Part shown: in pieces, positions 561 through 56,834 of the stretch
Layout of the letters: each line of letters begins with the position of its first letter
Position numbering within the stretch: the first letter of the stretch is position 1
From: Eledone cirrhosa
Taxonomy: Eukaryota
Length of the DNA: 64,000 bases
Assembly (NCBI GenBank): GCA_964016885.1
Contig: OZ024740.1
Span: 191,952,001-192,016,000, forward strand
Direction: 5' to 3'
Program-made: the position numbers and the translations under genes
Notes under the pieces: generated by a model
Seen by the model: the letters and a program-made list of their open reading frames with translations, nothing else
What the model was told of the DNA's origin: nothing
Database searches by the model: none

Positions 561-837
561 GGCATGGCTTCTATATATAGTAGTGGCATTAAATTAGAAC
601 AATAATAACAATACTCAAATAAATTAGCTTGATAGTAAATAGTTAAAATAATCATATCATTCTAAGTAAGAAATAGAGTATACTGATCACTTTACCATGT
701 AAAACGAGCTGATACGAAACAGATGTATGAAATGGACATGTAAAAGCTTTCATGGGGTATATTATATATAGCGTAGAGATAACCTGGGTCTTGAACATTT
801 ACTTTACTGTAGGTTTGCTGACCATAAGATTTATTTA

Positions 838-1761
838 TTACCATTCCTAGATATAATTATAATTAAAAACTACACCTCCATTACCACGGTAATATATTAT
901 AAACACAGAGACACCCATCAATATCTGAATTTTAAGTCGTGCCATTCTCCTCATACAAAACGCAACATCCCATACTGCCTAGCCAGAAGAATTTGTACCA
1001 TTGTAGAAGATACGAATACCAGGTACAAACGCCTAACAGAACTAAGAGAATTGTTGCTCAAACAAAAATACCCATCTATACTTATAGAAAATGGCATACA
1101 GCGGGCTATAAAAATACCTATACAACTTAGGACAACCCAAGGAAGAAGAAACCAAGAACTGGTCATACTATTTATAATGACACACAACCCATGTCACCAG
1201 AATATCTTCAACACTGACAAATCAAACCTACCGATCATTGCTCAAAGTAATGAATTAAAAGGCTTAATCACAGATCGATCTTTGACTCTTAGTAAAAGAT
1301 AGCCGAACAATTTGAAGCAATTACTAACAAAAGCAAAGTTTGACCTTAACAACAAAGACCAAGCATTCACTGTATCTAAATGCAATGATAGTCGATGCGG
1401 CACATGTCAATCCATACACGCCGGTCAATATATGAAAACAAAAACTGGAAAAATATTCCCAAATGCAAATATGAACTGCAAAAGCAGAAATCTAATTTAC
1501 TGCATTAAATGCCCGAATTGTGAAGAACTATATGTCGGTCAAACTGGAAATGAATTATCGCAACGTGCACGGGTACACCGACAGCAAATCAGAGACCCAA
1601 ATGTCCGTCAGATACCCCTGAATAACCCTCTAGCAACATGTGGTCAGGGAATATTTATAATATTCCCATTCTGCAAATTACACAGCCCAAGTGAAATCAA
1701 GAGAAAAATCAAAGAAAATAATTTTATTGATAAATTCAAACCCAAGCTAAATGAACAATAA
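838..1761 (+). pseudogene. Penelope-like element (Neptune-type): RT thumb, Zn-linker and GIY-YIG endonuclease; 5'-truncated and frameshifted
   Basis: PFLDI..YYKHTETPINI..F.SC thumb region at about 840-950. ORF 1312-1761 has CNDSRCGTC..CKSRNLIYCIKCPNCEELYVGQTG..R..H..E..FIDKFKPKLN. A stop at 1300 and frameshifts upstream. Confidence 0.88.
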
Positions 1762-3022: not shown

Positions 3023-3185
3023 CTGTGTGTGGGAATGAAGTATTTCTGTCAGAAAGGTACAGGAAAATAGAGTGCATTATGTACGATACAGAGCTTGTTA
3101 GTAATGTAATAAACAACATAAGATAATTATTTCATTTACCAGTGGTTTCTTGAAGACTGTCTTCAAGAAACCAGTGGTAAATGGT
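3010..3185 (-). mobile_element. 3' tail of the microsatellite-rich PLE pLTR family, ending in a short palindrome
   Basis: 3035-3155 matches the reverse complement of 18310-18425. 3133-3184 is an inverted repeat: catttacc.gtggtttcttgaagac-t-gtcttcaagaaacca.tggtaaatg. Confidence 0.6.
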
Positions 3186-3244
3186 ATAATTAACTTAACG
3201 ACCTACACTGCTTCGGGCTCACCACCACTGACATCCACCAACTC

Positions 3245-3668
3245 CTATCCATCGTCGTCGACAACACCTACTTCGAATTCCTTAACCAAATATACCAACA
3301 AACCTCGGGATTGCCCATGGGATCAAGTCTATCAGGTGTGCTAGCGATCTCCTACATGGACAACCTCGAACGCAAGGCACTCAACGCCTGCCACCCCAAC
3401 GCCGTAGCCTTTTTCTCAAGATACGTGGACGATATCCTCATCCTCACATCTTCCCAAGATACGGCGAACAGAATCTATGAGACGTTCAACAACACGGACG
3501 AGAACATTGACTTCAGTGTCGAACACCCCAACGAAGACGGGTCACTTGCCCTCCTCGACTTCCGAATCAACATCACGGAACAAGGAGGGATCTAATGCAA
3601 CTTCTACATAAAGGCAGCCTGCAGGGACCTATTCGTTCACTACAAGTCCGCCCTCCCTAACAGTGCCA
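3245..3668 (+). pseudogene. PLE reverse transcriptase core fragment (Penelope/Poseidon- or Nematis-like)
   Basis: GLPMGSSLSGVLAISYMDNLE..FFSRYVDDILIL..FSVEHPNEDGSLALLDFRI, then a stop and FYIKAACRDLFVHYKSALP. Confidence 0.85.
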
Positions 3669-4168: not shown

Positions 4169-5612
4169 TCATCATCATCATCATCATCATCGTTTAACGT
4201 CCGTGTTCTATGCTTGCATGGGTTTGGACGGGAGTTTTCCCACTTGAGGCAAGAGTGGTTGTCTTGCTCGCATAGGACTGTCTGGCGGGTTTTCTACAGT
4301 TGGATGCCCTTCCTAACACCAACCTAATTTACAGTGTGGGGTTGGGAGGTTTTTACCGTGTTGCCTACACGGCCACATTACAGCGTGGACTGTCTGGCAG
4401 GTTTTCTACAGCTGGATGCCCTTCCTAACACCAACCACATTTACAGTGTGGGGCTGGGACGTTTTTACCGTGTTGCCTACACGGTCACATTACAGCGTGG
4501 ACTGTGTGTTTTTTTTTTCGTGACACCTACACGATCTCATTTGTTTCGGCCTGGATGTTGTGGCACCAACATAACTTTACATTGAAAGGGGCGGTGTGGA
4601 TGGGGTGGGGGTGGTGGGATGGGGGTGTATTTTGTTAGAGATGCCTACTGCCGTAGTAGGTTTTACCTTGTATTTAGGTAACGCGGGTCTTCTCTGTTAC
4701 TGAGTACCGCCAAAGGTCTCGGTCCAGTGACATTGTCTTGGAGAGGTGTAAGTGTGTGAGGTCGGAATTTATCAGCTCGTCCCAGGTTTTTCTGGGTCTG
4801 CCTACTCCGTGGCTACCATCTATCTTTATTGCCCTGCACTTTGTTATACAGCTGTCGTCTTTCATGCGCATCACGTGACCATACCAACGTAGCCGTTCGC
4901 GTATATTACTATTACACATCCAGCGGAGCATGCAAGCTTCGTTCCTCTCTAGTCTGCGTATATCCTCTGCACACAATGCCCAGGTCTCACTGCCATGCAA
5001 CATTGCTGTTCGTATGCATGCATCATACAACCTGCCTTTCACTTTTAGGGAGAACCCTTTAGCGGCTAATAGTGGTATAAGCTCTCTGAACTTTTTCCAT
5101 CCAGTTCTGACTCTAGCTACTGTACTTTCGGAGCACCCTCCCCCACTGCTGATTTTGTCACCCAGGTAACGGAAGCTGTCCACTATTTCTATAGAACCCT
5201 CTGCGCAGTTGAAAGAGCTAGTATTTGTGTGGGCACTTGCTGCTACTTATTGCACCAGAGCACCGGCCACATGTAAAATCTGTGTTCTTAGTTAGCTTAC
5301 CTGTAATCCCACTACATCTTTTATGCACCCATACTTTGCATTTGGGACATAAAATGGAGTTTCTACCTACGCCTTTCCTACACACTGAGCATGGCCATTT
5401 CCCGGAAGGGACCGGCGCCTTATTTTCTTTCCTACAAACTAGAACTTTAGTCTTAGCCATGTTAATTGTAAGGCCTTTTGATTCTAGGCCGTGCTTCCAT
5501 GTTTGGAATTTCTTCTCTAGCTCGGCCATTGATTCAGCTATGAGCGTTAGGTCATCTGCGTATAGGAGTTCCCATGGGCAGCCGGACTTGAACTCCTCTG
5601 TTATAGCCTGAA
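4169..5612 (-). mobile_element. 5'-truncated RTE-clade LINE: RT C-terminus with PHD-like finger, 3' UTR and (TGA)n tail
   Basis: GCPWELLYADDL near 5550-5580. WPCSVCRKGVGRNSILCPKCKVWVHKRCSG..CGRC. DSFRYLG..RLRWYGHVMRM..GRPRKTW..DRDLWR. 3' end is (cat)n-cgtttaacgtccg. The UTR has a tandem duplication of about 116 bp at 4275-4503. Confidence 0.92.
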
Positions 5613-5666
5613 GAGCAATAATATATATATATATATATAGAGCAATATATATATATATATATATGT

Positions 5667-5732
<66 letters not shown>

Positions 5733-5734
<2 letters not shown>

Positions 5735-6096
5735 TAAAGAGTTAAACAAGATTCAATGAGTACATCAAAGAAAGAGTTTTACAGTAGATTGGAAGCACTC
5801 TACAGCGAAGATTTTCCTGAGTTATTAATATTAAAATACAAATATTAATAAAATATATGTTCTTTTGATAAATTAAATTGTATTATACATATTGCTGAGG
5901 TACAACAGTACGTCCTCATCAGACAAAATATAATGATACATTACAATGCCTGAGATGTTAAATCTTAACTATTTAACATCTCAGGGTATGTCATGTATCA
6001 TTATATGTTGTCTGATGAGGACGTACTGCTCTACCTCTGTAATATGTATAATAAAATTTAATTGATCAAAATAATATTTTATTAATATTTGTATTT

Positions 6097-6100
<4 letters not shown>
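5733..6100. mobile_element. Non-coding palindromic PLE-derived cassette with two diverging degenerate hammerheads (5877-5929 -, 6005-6057 +)
   Basis: 5830-6100 is an imperfect palindrome. Each arm has TTGT-CTGATGA-GGACGTAC..TACCTC-G(C/T)AA-TATGTA-TA-ATA. Paralog at 10720-11058. (TA)n on both sides. Confidence 0.75.
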
Positions 6101-6151
<51 letters not shown>

Positions 6152-6493: not shown

Positions 6494-6551
<58 letters not shown>

Positions 6552-6556
<5 letters not shown>

Positions 6557-7895
6557 AATAATGGAGCTGCGGCGTTGCAAATGGGATACATATGAAAAAG
6601 TGAGTCCTTCCTCAGTGACCCTCCAACCGTCCCAGGCATTTCATCGCTTTAAGGGCCATATACCTCAGGTTGGTGCGAACAACGGCTAAAAAAAAGTCGT
6701 TGCGACACGTAAATAAAGAGAACGTTAGGGTGAACAAACAAAATGGTTCAGGCAACAGAAGGTGAGAAGAAAGAGACAAGTCCCTGATTTCTATGAATAT
6801 AAACTCGATAAAACCGTGAACTAGAGAATAAAGACCATCAAACCTGGTTGAAATGTGAGCGAGGAAGGAATTTCGCACAGTTTTTCTCTCTCTCTCTCGT
6901 CTGCGTCTTCACAGAACTTATGTTTACCGAATTCGCAGACCAGACCCCTTCTTCTTCCCCCCTGTTAGACCTGTGCGAAATTCCTTCCTCGCTCACATTT
7001 CAACCAGGTTTGATGGTCTTTATTCTCTAGTTCACGGTTTTATCGAGTTTATATTCATAGAAATCTGGGACTTGTCTCTTTCTTCTCACTTTCTGTTGCC
7101 TAAACCATTTTGTTTGTTCACCCTAACGTTCTCTTTATTTACGTGTCCCAAAGACTTTTTTTAGCCGTTGTTCGCACCAACCTGAGCTATATGGCCCTTA
7201 AAGCGATGAAATGCCTGGGACGGTTGGAGGGTCACTGATGAAGGACTCACTTTTTCATATGTATCCCATTTGCAACGCCGCAGCTCCATTAGTATCATAT
7301 TTACACATATATTTTTTCCTCTGCTGCCACCCGTCTGTTTCGTTCTTTGTATCTTTAACCCTTTCTAGCAGTCTCTCTCTCTCTGTTAGCCTCTTCCTCA
7401 ACTTTCACTCACTCATACCCTGTCACTGCCTCTCCTCCTCTCCTCTTTCTTCCCGCTTGACCTGTCCGATTTCTTTTCTCGCGCACTCTTGGCCAAGCCG
7501 GTATGAAATTTTTTTTCTCTCTCTCTCTCGTCTGCGTCTTCACAGAACTTGTGTTTACCGAATTCGCAGACCAGACCCCTTCTTCTCCCCCCCCCCCCCC
7601 CGTTAGACCTGTGCGAAATTCCTTCCTCGCTCACATTTCAACCAGGTTTGATGGTCTTTATTCTCTAGTTCACGGTTTTATCGAGTTTATATTCATAGAA
7701 ATCTGGGACTTGTCTCTTTCTTCTCACTTTCTGTTGCCTAAACCATTTTGTTTGTTCACCCTAACGTTCTCTTTATTTACGTGTCCCAACGACTTTTTTT
7801 AGCCGTTGTTCGCACCAACCTGAGGTATATGGCCCTTAAAGCGATGAAATGCCTGGGACGGTTGGAGGGTCACTGATGAAGGACTCACTTTTTCA
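6552..7895. mobile_element. Young non-coding element: one inverted and two direct copies of a 330-420 bp unit (pLTR-like layout)
   Basis: 6552-6880 is the reverse complement of 6970-7298. 6881-7260 is repeated at 7512-7897 with few differences. Bounded by (TA)n. Confidence 0.8.
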
Positions 7896-10719: not shown

Positions 10720-12460
<1,741 letters not shown>

Positions 12461-15961: not shown

Positions 15962-16760
15962 TTAAGGTGGTTGAGTCATCGTAGGAATGTCAATCCAGTT
16001 ACAGAGCAGATGTGATTTCAGATGGGGACAATATCTGAAGATCTCGGTCCTGGAGTTAAGGCAAGTTGAAGTGGCTTTCAAATTCTGTAGAATTCTAAAT
16101 TTTTCAGTGGTACACAAAGAACAATTCTTTGAGCCCCTTTGGTATTCACTCGAATGGTCTAAATTAGACCAATCGATAGAGTACGGGATGTTATTATCTT
16201 TGAATTTCCAAACCTTATTAGCGAGGGCCGCTGCTGTTCTTTTATCAGAGTGTTTAAAAGAAGCGACATATGCATAACACCTGGTTTTAAAACTGTCTTG
16301 ATTCATACCAACATATCGTTCACTCCTGGCTGGCTGGTTGTTAATCAAAGATGTTACTTTCGCCTCATATACAACGGATTTGGTGTTACATTTGCCCTGT
16401 AATGGGCATTCATCCGGCTTTCCGCATCTGCATCCTGGATTTATTCTCGAACAATTACAGTTGGTGATTTTAGATTTCATAAAAGCGGAGCAAGAGTAAC
16501 TAATTTTAACTACATTTCTATTAAATATCTTATAATATCTATGATTATGGGGAAAATGCTTATCTAGGAGGTCAAGGAATTACCTTCCTACATTAGTTTT
16601 GACAGTTAGAGAGAATGGGGGTGTAAACCAAATAATTTTCCTTTTCCTATTATTGTGATTAGTTTTAGGGGAAGTGTAGGTAAATATGTAATCTGTTCTG
16701 TAAAGACGCTGTTAATGAGGGGCTTTATTATAATAAGGGGCAGCTTTATTAATTTTTCTT
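15962..16760 (-). pseudogene. YRDD-type PLE linker and GIY-YIG endonuclease, 5'-truncated
   Basis: RKIIWFTPPFS..KTNVGR*FLDLLDKHFPHNH..IFNRNVVKISYSC, then CRC..CPLQGKC..VVYEAKV..YVGM..FKTR..CSLCTTEK..LNSRTE..CPH. Confidence 0.88.
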
Positions 16761-33016: not shown

Positions 33017-34615
33017 CTACATTTTAAATTTAAATTTATATTTAAACGTTGAGTTTAATCTATGTTTGCAACAACTGAATAAATGTGTCCGTAGGTTAAG
33101 GGAATTTTTAGATTTTAGTATAAAGAATATCTCCTCTGCGCAGAGGTCACATGTCTCAGAGGATGAGTTAAAAGGAATCCCTCTTGAGACTATATTCCAA
33201 GCCGTCGAATATCTAACATTATCTAGCTTAAGTTGCCAGAGTACCCCTGATAGTGCCGTTGAAGATTTTTTATTTGGATCTGTGAAAGAATTCTTGTGGT
33301 TATTATAGCGAAGTTTAAATTCCGTCGATGTGGAACCGACGTAGTTAAAAGAATTAGAGTCAGTATTAACATTACAATTGTATACTATATTTTTAACTAA
33401 GCAGTTGTTATTTAACGGACATTTAGATCTATCTCTACAGTTACATTTGTTAACTTGTATATTATTTATGCTATTATCAGTAGGTTTTAAGTTCCTATTA
33501 TTTATTCTATTAATATTTTGTGCTAAATTTTTGGTGGATGAGTAGGTTAATTTAATTGTATGCCTATTGAAGATTGAGTGGTACCTATGTGTTCTAGGGA
33601 AGCGATTATCAAGAGCTTTGAAAAATAATTTAGCGATGTGGGTTTTAATGTTTAGTGAGAAAGGGGGGGCAAACCAAATTATGTTCCTAGTTCTATTTCT
33701 TTTTTGTCCTTTGGAATTATTGTAATGCTTTCTATTATAGTTGTTAATGTTGTTGCCGTAATTAAAAAAGTTGTTACTTTGTTTAGTTTGTTTATCATTA
33801 TCTATGTACACAATCTTATCAGCATACCCTGCCCTAGCTAGTGCATCATTATAGTATTGGGCCTTTTCGTCAAAAATCTTTCTATTCGACGAGATCCTAG
33901 AGATACGTTTTTGGACTGAGTTTACTATAGTGTTTTTGACAGATCTGGGGTGGTTAGAGTTAAAGTTGACATAGTTTAAGTTTTCATTCAACTTGTGAAA
34001 AGGATAGTGGAGACATGTGTTGAGATTTAATGTTATATCTAGGAAATTGACTATTCTATGGTTGTTCTCAATTTCTATTTTAAGGTTAAAGTAATTAAAA
34101 AATTTTGTAATTTGTTTACATTTTCTATTTAGTTCAGGGTTATTATTATTAATAAGTAAAAGCATGTCATCCCTATATAAACCTCCGGTAGTACCAGGTA
34201 TTTTCCTATGTAGCGAATTGATTAAAAATAAGCCCACAAGGTCAGTTACCTGAGCTGAGTCGGAAGATCCCATAGTTATGTCAAAATTACTATCTCTATC
34301 TGCTCTGGTCCATAATTTGTCATCAAATTCTATCAAAGTTTTCCTAGCCGATAATATAATATGCATTTCTTTGCTAGTTAGGTCAGTATGTTTGAATGCG
34401 TAATTTAGTGCCTTATTTAGTAGACTAGGGGTAATAGAAGAATAATAGTTAGCTATATCAAGTTGAATAAACCTATTATTATTGTCATATTTAATTTGCC
34501 TAAACCACTCAACAACCTCTCCATTTCCCTTCCACAAGCTCAGGTTAGATACACAATCCAAGTTCTTAATTTGCAGTATCACCCTGTCAAGAATGTTTTT
34601 GCTTAATTTGCCCAA
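33017..34615 (-). CDS. Penelope-like element polyprotein, RT plus GIY-YIG endonuclease (YRDD type); main ORF
   Basis: 532-aa open frame: FIQLDIANYYSSI, MGSSDSAQVTDLVG, LYRDD, VNFLDITL, SNHP, IIWFAPPFS, CNCR..CPL..C, IVY..YVG..FKLRYNNHK, CDLCAEE, LNLR..CKH. Confidence 0.93.
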   Translation of the reverse strand: MGKLSKNILDRVILQIKNLDCVSNLSLWKGNGEVVEWFRQIKYDNNNRFIQLDIANYYSSITPSLLNKALNYAFKHTDLTSKEMHIILSARKTLIEFDDKLWTRADRDSNFDITMGSSDSAQVTDLVGLFLINSLHRKIPGTTGGLYRDDMLLLINNNNPELNRKCKQITKFFNYFNLKIEIENNHRIVNFLDITLNLNTCLHYPFHKLNENLNYVNFNSNHPRSVKNTIVNSVQKRISRISSNRKIFDEKAQYYNDALARAGYADKIVYIDNDKQTKQSNNFFNYGNNINNYNRKHYNNSKGQKRNRTRNIIWFAPPFSLNIKTHIAKLFFKALDNRFPRTHRYHSIFNRHTIKLTYSSTKNLAQNINRINNRNLKPTDNSINNIQVNKCNCRDRSKCPLNNNCLVKNIVYNCNVNTDSNSFNYVGSTSTEFKLRYNNHKNSFTDPNKKSSTALSGVLWQLKLDNVRYSTAWNIVSRGIPFNSSSETCDLCAEEIFFILKSKNSLNLRTHLFSCCKHRLNSTFKYKFKFKM

Positions 34616-35020
34616 TCCGATTTTGAAGGTGCGATCAATCTAACTGGCAGGTCAATTTCAAAATTCCTCTTGTGGTCCTTCATATTGATCTTCGGTTTCC
34701 TGGGCACGAAAGGTTGTGTTCTGTTCTCAATTTCCAACTCATGCATTATACAAGATGCTTCAACATTCATTTTCTCAAGTTCGGCCTTATCTGCTACCTT
34801 GTATTTTTTCCTCAGCTCTTTCAGTATGAGGCCATTATACATGTCTTTCCGCACTCCATAGAGGTTGTTGGTCTTGTCAGATTTCACCAAGATCTTCTCA
34901 GTTTTCTCTAAGCTCTCAATGTTATCCTTAATGCCTTTCAGATATTCCTGGCCTTTAAAGTTTCTCTTGAATTTGACCCCTTGTATGATAGAAATTATAT
35001 CGTTTTCAAAGTCAGATAAA
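34603..35020 (-). pseudogene. N-terminal part of the same PLE ORF, separated by a 1-nt frameshift and 5'-truncated
   Basis: LSDFENDI..VKFKRN..VKSDKTNNLY..KYK..MKDHKRNF..VRLIAPSKSD joins LGKLSK if one T is added at tcggat(t)tgggc near 34613-34620. Confidence 0.85.
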
Positions 35021-35937
35021 AGATATATATACATACATATATATGAGGGAATGGTGTCTTCCACATAGGATTTGAAGTCCAGGAAATTTGCATATCAATA
35101 ATATCGATAATATTTATATGCAGTACTTCTTATGTAATCAATACTACATTTGACTATATTACCCATATTTTATTAATATAAAGTTTAAAGTTAAAATATA
35201 AAGTTAAAATATATAAAGTTAAATAAATATAAAGTTAAAATAATATAAAGTTAAAATATAACGTTTAACACATTTCTTCTCCATGCAGTAAATGTTTTAT
35301 CTAAACTATAATAAAGTAAGGATTGCGGGACTGCACCCACAATACATTTTTTTATATCTCGTTTGTAAAATAAGTTGGATTACTTTAAATAATTAATGAA
35401 TGAATATTACATAATGTATGTACTAAACTTCGTAAATAAATGTCGTATTTATAAATAATTTGAAATCGACTTCTTTCAAATTCACAAATTTCTTCACTTC
35501 CGTATACTCGTCGCCACCACCATCAGTTCAACTACCATATACATAGAAAGAGAGAGTGTGTGATGAGCGAGATAGAGTTATAATGATTTTCTGCACGCTG
35601 ACGCGTATGATTGTGCACATACATATATCTATATATATGAGTATATAACTATAATTGTGCAAACACAAATTTATGAAAATACACCCTCACGAACATACAT
35701 TCAGATAAATACACATACTTTCACACAAAAAACATTCACACATACATTTACACAGACACACATACAGTCATGATAGCGTTCCGTGAATTGTAAACGAGAG
35801 GGTGAAACAAGTATAACGTTTTATTTATTTATTAACAACACAGTTTTACTTTTTTTATTTTTAAACTCATTTGTATAAAAATTTAATATAATGCTTGCAG
35901 AACGAAAACACAATCAAATACAAAATATACAAAGGAA

Positions 35938-43084: not shown

Positions 43085-43287
43085 ATGGTAAAGAACCAGA
43101 TGGACCATAGCGCACCAGAGTACTCAATACTTAGGGTAGTAGAGTGGGCAATAGGAAAATGTATGATCCCGATGGCAGAGTTTAAGCCGTTTCGAAAGCT
43201 ATTTCTATACTAAAATAATTTTTTTTAGTCTAGAAATAGCCGTCGAGACGGCTTGAGGTCTGCCGTCGGGGTCATACATTTTCCTAT
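43085..43287 (+). mobile_element. Hairpin-element family copy (137-bp terminal palindrome at 43151-43287)
   Basis: ataggaaaatgtatga.cccga.ggcaga..tctgccgtcggggtcatacattttcctat. Leader shared with 56891 and 22464. Confidence 0.75.
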
Positions 43288-49300: not shown

Positions 49301-49329
49301 ATATATAAGTATTCGTATATACATGCATA

Positions 49330-49360
<31 letters not shown>

Positions 49361-49500
49361 TTAGTATATCTTGGTGTTATACCAACGCATCAGTATGCAG
49401 AATGGAGCACTCGACGAAGTGCGCAGGTTGGTTTGGTTACTCCGAAGTAATGTAAAATAAAATAAACAAGTCTAATGTTTAAAATTTGGCTTCGTTTATT

Positions 49501-49555
49501 ACTGCTATATATATTTCGGTGACAGCCATCTTTGGCTGTGACCTCTTCAGGCAGT
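49501..49555 (-). ncRNA. Type I minimal hammerhead ribozyme, canonical
   Basis: ACTGC-CTGAAGA-GGTcACAGCCA-aaga-TGGCTGTcACC-GAAA-TATATA-TA-GCAGT-AATAAA. Confidence 0.92.
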
Positions 49556-49720
49556 CCGAGTTAGTGTAGTAGAGATGAGTACACATGTTGTTGAGGTGTT
49601 TAACTTTGTCAACACTCTGATATGCCCTGTTCCTGGTTGGGTTGTTATTTCACTGAGGAACTGGAAGAGTATTGACAAAGTTAAACACCTCAACAACTCG
49701 TCTCTACCACACTAATTCGG

Positions 49721-49775
49721 ACTGCCTGAAGAGGTCGCAGCCAAAGATGGCTGTCACCGAAATCTATATACCAGT
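49721..49775 (+). ncRNA. Type I hammerhead, mirror copy
   Basis: ACTGC-CTGAAGA-GGTcGCAGCCA-aaga-TGGCTGTcACC-GAAA-TCTATA-TA-cCAGT: core intact, one stem I mismatch. Confidence 0.8.
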
Positions 49776-50500
49776 AACAAACGAAGCCAAATTTTAAACA
49801 TTTGATTTATTTATTTTATTTTATATATATATATATTCCCCTCTGCAAAAGTAACTTTAACAGACAAACTTTAAACACACACACAGAAACACACACAACA
49901 ACCCCACACATATTTACGCAAACAACACTCGTATATGTGTACTCTTGTATATACACCCTCACACTCTCTCCATACATGTGTGTGGGTATGTGTGTATGTG
50001 TGTGTGGGGGGGGGGGATGCACACATCCCAACCTACCACACTAGTGAGCGCCTACAACCCCCTACCTCCTTTTGAACTATTGACAACTAGATTACTCAAA
50101 ACAGTCAGAGCACATTTCTCACACCAAAAAAACATCTTGGCGTAATTTCCTGCCAACTTTTCAGGAGGCATTATGGAAGAAGTTTTACTCAAACATTCGT
50201 TTTTCTATTTTAATTTTAAACCTTTTTTTTACTCCCTTTTTAATTAATTTTATGCACTGAATTTGACAAGATGGATCTTAATACATCGAATCCAGTAATG
50301 TTCTCATACACATTATATACTTCATGGAAAACATTTCAAAAAAGAATTGTCCCTCTCATTTTTTAAAAACATCATGTTTTTAATAACACTATTTTTTCAA
50401 AATGTCACTTTGATGATTCAAAGAAGAAAAACAGACCCTTAAACATATCTCCCGTGCTATATCTAACTTCATCTTTTCTCTCTCTCTCTCTCTCTCTCGC

Positions 50501-56245: not shown

Positions 56246-56287
<42 letters not shown>

Positions 56288-56291
<4 letters not shown>

Positions 56292-56788
56292 ATACGTGGG
56301 GAATGTCATATTGTTATAATAATATTGTCGGAAATAATAACAGAACGCACTCACTGTTTGGTTGGTTTTCGCTTCTGTATCTTTTATATCTGCACAGCTA
56401 ATTCATTTTGGTAATCAAGGTTTATCATTGACTGACCAACGGTCAACAATACAGATATAAATACATATATATTGTCTAACAACGTTCTTTCGTTGCACAT
56501 CTGTAACATCATCAGTGGTACTATTAAAATAAAAATGGCGTAGATATACAATACATCAGTAGGAACATAATAGTAGCACTGATGATGTTGTAGATGTGCA
56601 ACGGAAGAACTTTGTTAGACAATATATATGTATTTTATCCTTATTGTTTACCGTTGGTCAGTCAATGATAAACATTAACTGTGGAGATATAAAATATGCA
56701 GTAGCGAAAACCAACCAAACAGTGAGTTTGTTCTGTTATTATTTCTGGCAATATTATTGCAAAAATATGACCCTCCCCAAGTAGAACA
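56288..56788. mobile_element. ~500-bp foldback MITE with TGT..ACA termini and ATAT TSD (Ginger-like)
   Basis: The whole element is an imperfect palindrome. Termini are TGTTATAC and GTAGAACA, flanked by atat. Lone termini at 12467-12500 and 38175-38202. Confidence 0.75.
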
Positions 56789-56834
56789 ATATTTGTTTCG
56801 ACAACGATTTCATATCAAAAACCTCGCAAAACAA

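What the first reader, a model, noticed from the sequence alone, without database searches (positions are those of the whole stretch)
49360..49820. Cleanest example: 460-bp palindrome with a canonical hammerhead on each strand
Both arms keep CUGAAGA and GAAA with a 10-bp stem II. A transcript from either strand would contain one sense ribozyme and its antisense copy. The ~160-bp foldback would compete with ribozyme folding, giving a potential self-inhibiting switch (inference). Stem III is only A-UAUAUA-U. Such short palindromic stems are the type described as working through dimeric HHRs.
Basis: partly seen in the sequence, partly recalled or inferred. Interest (0 to 1): 0.72.

Follow-up and report, generated by a model that had tools for sequence, protein, structure and literature searches.

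The report
Head-to-head Penelope retrotransposon end stub
This DNA palindrome is two short copies of the hammerhead-bearing end of a very common Penelope-like jumping gene joined head to head, a known layout likely left by one insertion event, and its long hairpin is predicted to keep the ribozyme shut rather than act as a switch.

Summary
The inverted repeat is real, but it spans 49450-49826 (377 bp); 49352-49449 is a one-sided tail. Both arms are the pseudo-LTR (pLTR) of a Hydra-clade Penelope-like retrotransposon (PLE). Long relatives carry the reverse transcriptase and GIY-YIG endonuclease with every Hydra hallmark tested. The 43-nt hammerhead core occurs 1,193 times exactly. Only the minus-strand hammerhead is intact; the plus-strand copy has lost the stem I pair beside the cut and its stem III palindrome. 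Of 87 sampled insertions, 40 have a head-to-head partner. All 40 pair one tailed with one untailed end, fold points vary, and the arms share source-element variants. This fits two cDNAs copied from one RNA into a cut (TA)n, then joined. Fold-back outweighs the hammerhead fold by about 71 kcal/mol, and the antisense arm is transcribed first on either strand, so a switch is unsupported. Inverted pLTRs with a one-sided tail and opposite-strand hammerheads are in print, and this scan noted the same layout on other DNA. Cleavage and expression were not testable.

The parts
49327..49351 (.). (TA)n microsatellite, left flank of the insertion
   Evidence: sequence; (TA)n follows the 3' end of most sampled copies
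49352..49449 (-). About 100-nt tail: pLTR-downstream 5' UTR sequence ending at the long (distal) 3' end, plus an A run; present on this arm only
   Evidence: runs on into the 5' UTR and ORF in long copies L097, L098, L101; the 30 tail-selected copies end at or near the same point
49450..49618 (-). Left arm, paired part: 5'-truncated pLTR copy, sense on the minus strand
49501..49555 (-). Intact type I hammerhead: stem I 49555-49551/49505-49501, CUGAAGA 49550-49544, stem II 49543-49518, GAAA 49517-49514, palindromic helix III segment, predicted cut between 49506 and 49505
   Evidence: matches the family majority throughout; stems I and II form in the isolated fold
49619..49666 (-). Unpaired 5' overhang of the left arm (pLTR positions -116 to -69 relative to the core C); forms the hairpin loop
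49666..49667 (.). Head-to-head junction with about 1 nt of overlap
   Evidence: WIN row
49667..49826 (+). Right arm: 5'-truncated pLTR copy from position -68 to the short (proximal) 3' end; carries an 8-nt deletion
49721..49775 (+). Damaged hammerhead copy: changes at 49737, 49764 (helix III) and 49771 (stem I pair beside the cut)
49822..49836 (.). (TA)n microsatellite, right flank of the insertion
   Evidence: sequence

Best explanation
It is a short insertion of a Hydra-clade Penelope-like retrotransposon, made of two 5'-truncated copies of the element's hammerhead-bearing pLTR joined head to head inside a (TA)n repeat, likely made in one event and predicted to be inert. Shown: family identity, the pLTR-ORF link, two fixed 3' ends about 100 nt apart, one long and one short end per palindrome, variable fold points, shared source variants, and decay of one ribozyme. 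Inferred (about 0.65): the GIY-YIG nuclease cuts both strands of (TA)n. Each DNA end primes reverse transcription on the same RNA, one at the distal and one at the proximal start site. Both cDNAs stop early, often near position -122 (possibly the transcript 5' end), and are joined by short microhomology. The hammerhead is a passenger from the pLTR; in the full element it would likely cut tandem precursor RNA as a dimer or with protein help (from the literature, untested here). In read-through RNA of this stub it is predicted to be locked in a 160-bp duplex.
For: Family and ORF: 1,193 exact copies of the core, control 0. Copies extend 5' into a GIY-YIG domain (Pfam E 1e-4 to 7e-4, one of three proteins just over the cut-off) and an RT region. 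The layout pLTR-tail-UTR-ORF-pLTR is seen in L097, L098 and L101. The Hydra motifs are seen (against PMC8557442 section 11). One-long-one-short rule: 40 of 40 head-to-head pairs among 87 insertions (p=9e-13 against 0.5; unpaired copies are 25 short, 18 long, 4 other). It also holds in 11 of 11 and 11 of 11 pairs in two further sets of 30 loci, the second selected on the tail and including the window, and in 5 of 5 long elements with both ends visible among 9 fetched. One source: shared non-majority bases 1.42% against 0.33% in shuffled pairs, 0 of 2000 shuffles (28 pairs). 5' ends lie within 25 nt in 20 of 27 pairs against 8.6 expected, 0 of 10000 shuffles. Against simple copy-back: the untailed arm reaches further 5' in 25 of 40 pairs, and the arms share no sequence in 3 of 40. 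Junctions overlap by 1-9 nt in 25 of 40. Purified PLE protein cuts and extends both strands and starts RT at two sites that bound the tail (PMC11167929).
Against: No intermediate or transcript was observed. In the window itself the tailed arm is the longer one, which also fits fold-back. Deletions at the hairpin centre after insertion could create the asymmetry that I read as independent truncation. Gene conversion between arms could add shared variants. The tail (about 100 nt) is longer than the 30-40 nt usually described, and the element (about 4 kb) is longer than most Hydra families (under 3 kb). Pfam did not recognise the RT (0 hits); it rests on motifs and on tblastn to a neighbouring Hydra-like ORF. 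No tree was built. Two of 87 loci have tail-to-tail short-short partners, outside the rule's definition. The 87 loci all come from one chromosome and were selected on an exact core. A target-site duplication cannot be read in (TA)n.
Confidence: 0.85

Rival explanations
1. Same element, but the mirror arm arises by self-priming (fold-back) of an antisense template or first cDNA at a short palindrome, as proposed for rotifer Penelope, with later trimming or deletion at the centre.
For: Proposed in PMC3846280 (passages). Arms share variants and have correlated 5' ends. A short self-complementary word sits at the -124..-119 hotspot. In the window the tailed arm holds the loop.
Against: In 25 of 40 pairs each arm holds sequence that the other lacks, and in 3 of 40 the arms do not overlap at all. 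L181 has identical arms (0/186) yet the untailed arm is 19 nt longer. Fold-back does not by itself explain a fixed second 3' end.
Confidence: 0.25
2. The palindrome is a selected self-inhibiting ribozyme switch, or an exapted source of double-stranded RNA, at this locus.
For: The fold-back is very stable. The minus-strand ribozyme is unchanged from the family majority. Over 67 arms the core varies less than the flanks (16/666 vs 342/7571, p=0.0095).
Against: That signal vanishes when only private changes are counted (4/265 vs 34/2924), so it likely reflects source elements. The plus-strand copy is damaged. Fold points vary. The antisense arm precedes the sense arm and the gap is about 71 kcal/mol. 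No host exon was recognised among the 47 long ORFs of the window, 5 of which were scanned with Pfam.
Confidence: 0.04
3. The palindrome is a self-propagating unit (MITE-like or retrozyme-like) that moves as a whole.
For: Very many short palindromic copies exist. 27 of 83 5' ends fall at -125..-119.
Against: Junctions and arm lengths differ between copies. There are no tandem ribozyme repeats as retrozymes need (bioRxiv 10.64898/2026.07.22.740005, part 1 of 5). The ends coincide with those of full-length PLE copies.
Confidence: 0.04
4. Two independent insertions into the same (TA)n, or an assembly fold-back artefact.
For: (TA)n is the preferred target, so repeated insertion occurs; 2 tail-to-tail cases were seen.
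Against: There is no (TA)n at the junction. 40 of 40 pairs are long plus short. Arms share variants. The window's arms differ at 11 of 143 sites plus an indel, unlike a chimeric read.
Confidence: 0.02

Closest known systems
Hydra clade of C-terminal-endonuclease Penelope-like elements (PMC8557442), e.g. Hydra-1_Obim listed in its supplement
   Same: RWK, DKT and CxCX5C motifs, no CCHH, CxxC and CxH around E and N, (TA)n target, hammerhead in the pLTR. The N-terminal RT motifs match Hydra-1_Obim by eye.
   Different: A different family: the hammerhead stems differ from the one tabulated for Hydra-1_Obim. The element is about 4 kb with a repeat-rich 3' region, has clear pLTRs and a tail of about 100 nt.
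PLE insertion unit with inverted 5'-truncated pLTR and one-sided tail (Adineta Pen2a, D. virilis Penelope; PMC3846280, PMC8557442 Fig. 2 legend)
   Same: Head-to-head inverted pLTR, tail on one of the two inverted ends, short overlaps at the junction.
   Different: Here the unit is reduced to the two pLTR stubs with no ORF. The tail is about 100 nt rather than 30-40. The one-tail rule holds in 40 of 40 pairs.
Minimal or PLE-type type I hammerheads (PMC4209133)
   Same: Long stem II, 5-bp stem I, short palindromic helix III, predicted dimer activity. The paper already reports dual motifs 100-700 bp apart on opposite strands.
   Different: No unpaired base between A9 and G10.1 in the best fold; stem II carries a C.C mismatch kept in a sister family. 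Activity is untested here.
Non-LTR retrozymes (bioRxiv 10.64898/2026.07.22.740005)
   Same: Type I hammerhead, PLE pLTR origin, non-coding.
   Different: Retrozymes are direct tandem repeats with two or more sense ribozymes; this is an inverted pair with one sense ribozyme per strand.

Membership tests
EN+ Penelope-like element | Single ORF with RT followed by a C-terminal GIY-YIG endonuclease | tested here: met
   GIY-YIG in Pfam at E 1e-4 to 7e-4. RT by motifs and tblastn only; Pfam RVT_1 not hit. All long copies examined are broken by stops or frameshifts.
EN+ Penelope-like element | pLTRs flanking the ORF, with a hammerhead | tested here: met
   The window's arms match the 5' and 3' repeats of L098 and L101.
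EN+ Penelope-like element | Inverted 5'-truncated copy and one-sided tail | tested here: met
   40 of 87 insertions have such a partner, and 40 of 40 carry one tail. The tail is about 100 nt.
EN+ Penelope-like element | RT groups with PLEs in a phylogeny | not tested
   No named reference sequences were held as session sequences; comparison with Hydra-1_Obim was by eye.
Hydra clade | RWK motif and DKG changed to DKT | tested here: met
   RWK in L101; DKT in L097 and L099.
Hydra clade | CxCX5C linker; CCHH absent; CxxC and CxH around E and N | tested here: met
   Translations: one Cys only between the IY and YIG motifs.
Hydra clade | Insertion into (TA)n | tested here: met
   Both flanks here; most 3' ends.
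Hydra clade | Generally under 3 kb | tested here: not met
   About 4 kb between pLTRs. The paper gives this as a tendency, not a rule.
Neptune clade (considered) | CX2-5CxxC linker and CCHH motif | tested here: not met
Type I hammerhead (minus-strand copy) | CUGANGA, GAAA and UH core with stems I and II | tested here: met
   one compensatory C-G to U-A change in stem II of a sister family
Type I hammerhead (plus-strand copy) | Stem I closed at pair 1.1-2.1 and a pairable helix III | tested here: not met
   C.C at 1.1-2.1; helix III homoduplex -0.2 against -3.2 kcal/mol. That such a mismatch lowers cleavage is recalled; the paper was not held.
Type I hammerhead | Match to an Rfam hammerhead model | tested here: not met
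Type I hammerhead | Self-cleavage as monomer or dimer | not testable with these tools
   Needs an in vitro assay.
Non-LTR retrozyme | Direct tandem repeats, each with a hammerhead | tested here: not met
   Inverted pair; the window holds no other copy of the family.
Riboswitch-like regulatory switch | Two folds close in energy, with an input | tested here: not met
   About 71 kcal/mol gap, pairing probability 0, antisense arm first. Equilibrium model only.

The most novel reading that the evidence does not exclude
These stubs are a genome-wide record of how Penelope-like elements integrate. Both ends of one cut (TA)n prime on the same RNA, always one at the distal and one at the proximal start site (40 of 40 pairs); both cDNAs stop near the same point, often the predicted transcript start at about -122; and the two are then joined. 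This twin-priming model would replace self-priming as the origin of PLE inverted repeats and one-sided tails, and it names exact RT start and transcription start positions for a Hydra-clade element.
Probability: 0.6. Interest if true: 0.5.

Novelty: new member of a known kind. Interest (0 to 1): 0.22.

Why it matters
The locus itself is an ordinary, partly decayed transposon stub and should not be pursued as a ribozyme switch. The family is more useful. How PLEs make inverted pLTRs and one-sided tails is open in the papers read (PMC3846280, PMC8557442, PMC11167929). The strict long-plus-short pairing, shared variants and arm asymmetry favour two primings on one RNA, and they give exact coordinates for a 5' RACE or in vitro test. 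It also warns that palindromes with a hammerhead on each strand are routine in PLE-rich genomes.

Tried and rejected
Rfam scans: no hammerhead hit. My first regex scan missed the motif because it demanded 4 unbroken stem II pairs. Sequencing runs: no RNA holder listed. Contigs of three runs from one sample covered the repeat as many short pieces, and none spanned the locus, so they say nothing on the allele or on expression. I first filed the element as Neptune, then rejected that on the linker and CCHH motifs. Footprint of ribozyme cutting: 5' ends within 5 nt of the predicted cut (+45) in 3 of 100 arms not selected on the core (2 of 40 partners, 1 of 30, 0 of 30); no clear peak. Cap-derived G before the -122 ends: 5 of 12, inconclusive. 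Target-site duplication: unreadable in (TA)n. Lunse et al. (RNA Biol, dimeric PLE hammerheads) was not held and was seen only through a review; a paper on helix I mismatches was not held and a search gave nothing useful. Earlier-findings look-ups by place and by sequence were empty. No structure prediction, tree or protein database search was run.

Full report
Observation. The window is microsatellite-rich DNA (GC 26-41%) from a 3.0-Gb genome. Self-alignment gives an inverted repeat with arms 49450-49618 and 49667-49826 and an 8-nt indel. It folds at -277 and -275 kcal/mol on the two strands, with 0 of 100 shuffles as good. The stretch 49352-49449 is not part of the palindrome. Both arms hold CUGAAGA and GAAA, with a stem II of 3 + 7 pairs around a C.C mismatch. 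The minus-strand motif (49501-49555) equals the family majority. The plus-strand motif differs at 49737, 49764 and 49771: helix III is no longer self-complementary (homoduplex -0.2 against -3.2 kcal/mol), and the stem I pair beside the cut becomes C.C. That this harms cleavage is recalled knowledge. Rfam finds no hammerhead.

What it is. The right arm has 1,264 first-look candidates in the genome, and the 43-nt core has 1,193 exact matches (585 plus, 608 minus; reversed control 0). Walking 5' from copies selected on the tail led into a GIY-YIG domain and then an RT region. In L097, L098 and L101 the tail runs on into a 5' UTR and the ORF; in L098 and L101 the 5' repeat also holds the hammerhead region, and the same repeat closes the element. 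The arms are therefore pLTRs of a Penelope-like element. The protein shows RWK, DKT, a CxCX5C linker, no CCHH, and CxxC/CxH around E and N, which are the features given for the Hydra clade (PMC8557442, section 11 read whole). Its supplement lists Hydra-1_Obim, whose N-terminal motifs match by eye but whose hammerhead differs (searched for terms only, long runs cut). Pfam does not hit the RT and I built no tree, so clade membership rests on motifs.

The family. I analysed 87 insertions drawn from the first 100 listed core matches, all on one chromosome. They cover 97 of the 100; ten matches were second members of a pair, and the window and two others were left out. Copies have two 3' ends, near +98 and near +196 to +211 relative to the core C, usually running into (TA)n. 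Forty have an adjacent head-to-head partner. All 40 pair one long with one short end, while unpaired copies are 25 short, 18 long and 4 other. Two further sets of 30 loci gave 11 of 11 and 11 of 11; the second was selected on the tail and includes the window. Five of five long elements with both ends visible agree. Two loci have tail-to-tail short-short partners and lie outside this count. The partner holds a whole hammerhead in 27 of 40 pairs. Fold centres range from -27 to -382, and 27 of 83 focal 5' ends cluster at -125..-119. The window pairs a long arm from -116 with a short arm from -68, with about 1 nt of overlap.

Mechanism. The arms of a pair share non-majority bases far more than shuffled pairs (1.42% against 0.33%, 0 of 2000; 28 pairs including the window). 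Their 5' ends lie within 25 nt in 20 of 27 pairs (8.6 expected, 0 of 10000). So one event and one source are likely. The untailed arm reaches more than 5 nt further 5' in 25 of 40 pairs, the tailed arm in 9, with 6 level, and in 3 the arms share nothing. Neither arm can then be a simple copy of the other, unless the centre was deleted later. Junctions overlap by 1-9 nt in 25 of 40, carry insertions in 13, and 2 are other. A purified Poseidon protein cuts and extends both strands of AT-rich DNA and starts RT at two internal sites that bound the tail; its hammerhead cuts only with protein and is not needed for insertion in vitro (PMC11167929, parts 1-2 of 4). I infer twin priming on one RNA (about 0.65). 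The rival is self-priming, proposed in PMC3846280 (passages). That -122 is the transcription start is a guess by analogy with the internal promoter of D. virilis Penelope (PMC2377424, passages); the cap-G test was inconclusive (5 of 12).

The switch idea. Forcing hammerhead stems I and II in the full transcript costs about 71 kcal/mol on either strand, their pairing probability rounds to 0, and the antisense arm lies 5' of the sense arm in both directions. That predicts a constant off state. One result favours selection on the ribozyme: over 67 arms not chosen on the core, the core varies less than the flanks (16/666 against 342/7571, p=0.0095). Counting only private changes in partner arms removes this (core 4/265, stems 18/755, flanks 34/2924), which points to selection in source elements rather than in stubs, though the sample is small. 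A sister family keeps stem I, the C.C mismatch and one compensatory pair, and other hammerhead candidates in the fetched loci share the same AU-rich helix III. The ribozyme fold is thus credible at family level.

Known or new. PMC4209133 (parts 1-2 of 4) reports minimal hammerheads in pLTRs, weak dimer-only cleavage, and dual motifs 100-700 bp apart on opposite strands. PMC8557442 (passages) and PMC3846280 describe the inverted 5'-truncated copy and a tail at one end only. The layout is therefore in print. A search for Penelope-like, tail, inverted and twin priming returned one unrelated review (listing only), and a search for Neptune, Penelope and octopus returned only PMC8557442. These few searches of an open-access library cannot show that the twin-priming reading is unpublished, and unread supplements, including those of PMC11167929, may bear on it. 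Earlier AI notes of this scan describe the same layout and a similar mechanism on other DNA; my reading and the 40-of-40 count preceded that look-up, and the notes are not independent support.

Verdict. A real but ordinary stub of a new Hydra-clade PLE family, with one intact and one damaged hammerhead; new member of a known kind; interest 0.22. The family-level pairing rule is the part worth testing.

Noticed in passing
window 33017-35094 (-): Near-complete ORF, in two frames, of a second Hydra-like PLE family (51% identity to this family's RT part; CxCX5C linker).
   Followed up: partly
window 15962-16579 (-), 772-1761 (+), 3194-3595 (+): Further PLE-like fragments: a Hydra-type endonuclease end, a GIY-YIG with CCHH-type cysteines (Pfam E 7e-8), and an RT fragment (RVT_1 E 5e-11).
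   Followed up: partly
window 5828-6102, 6538-7312, 10817-11058, 56284-56792, 3119-3197, 43151-43287: Other fold-back palindromes of unrelated sequence. 10817-11058 has a hammerhead-like core on each strand, one with a core change; likely stubs of other PLE families.
   Followed up: no
window 4674-5733 (-): Fragments that look like the C-terminal part of an RTE-type LINE (label recalled; no Pfam hit for the one ORF scanned).
   Followed up: no
L002:1798-1867 (-); L226-L237: Sister hammerhead family (19 matches) with the same stem I, a compensatory stem II change and, in most copies, AA in place of the U before the cut site; in L002 it lies 250 nt upstream of this family's hammerhead on the same strand.
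   Followed up: partly
L011, L013, L047, L048 (3' region between ORF and pLTR): The element's 3' region holds internal duplications of about 100 and 150 nt and a pyrimidine-rich microsatellite of variable length.
   Followed up: no
L213, L214, L205 (G000:C3:338835513-338845338): Three same-strand copies 4.1 and 5.7 kb apart, possibly a tandem array of long elements in which dimeric ribozymes could form.
   Followed up: no
L115, L118: Tail-to-tail pairs of two short-ended copies separated by a few TA units, unlike the head-to-head rule.
   Followed up: no
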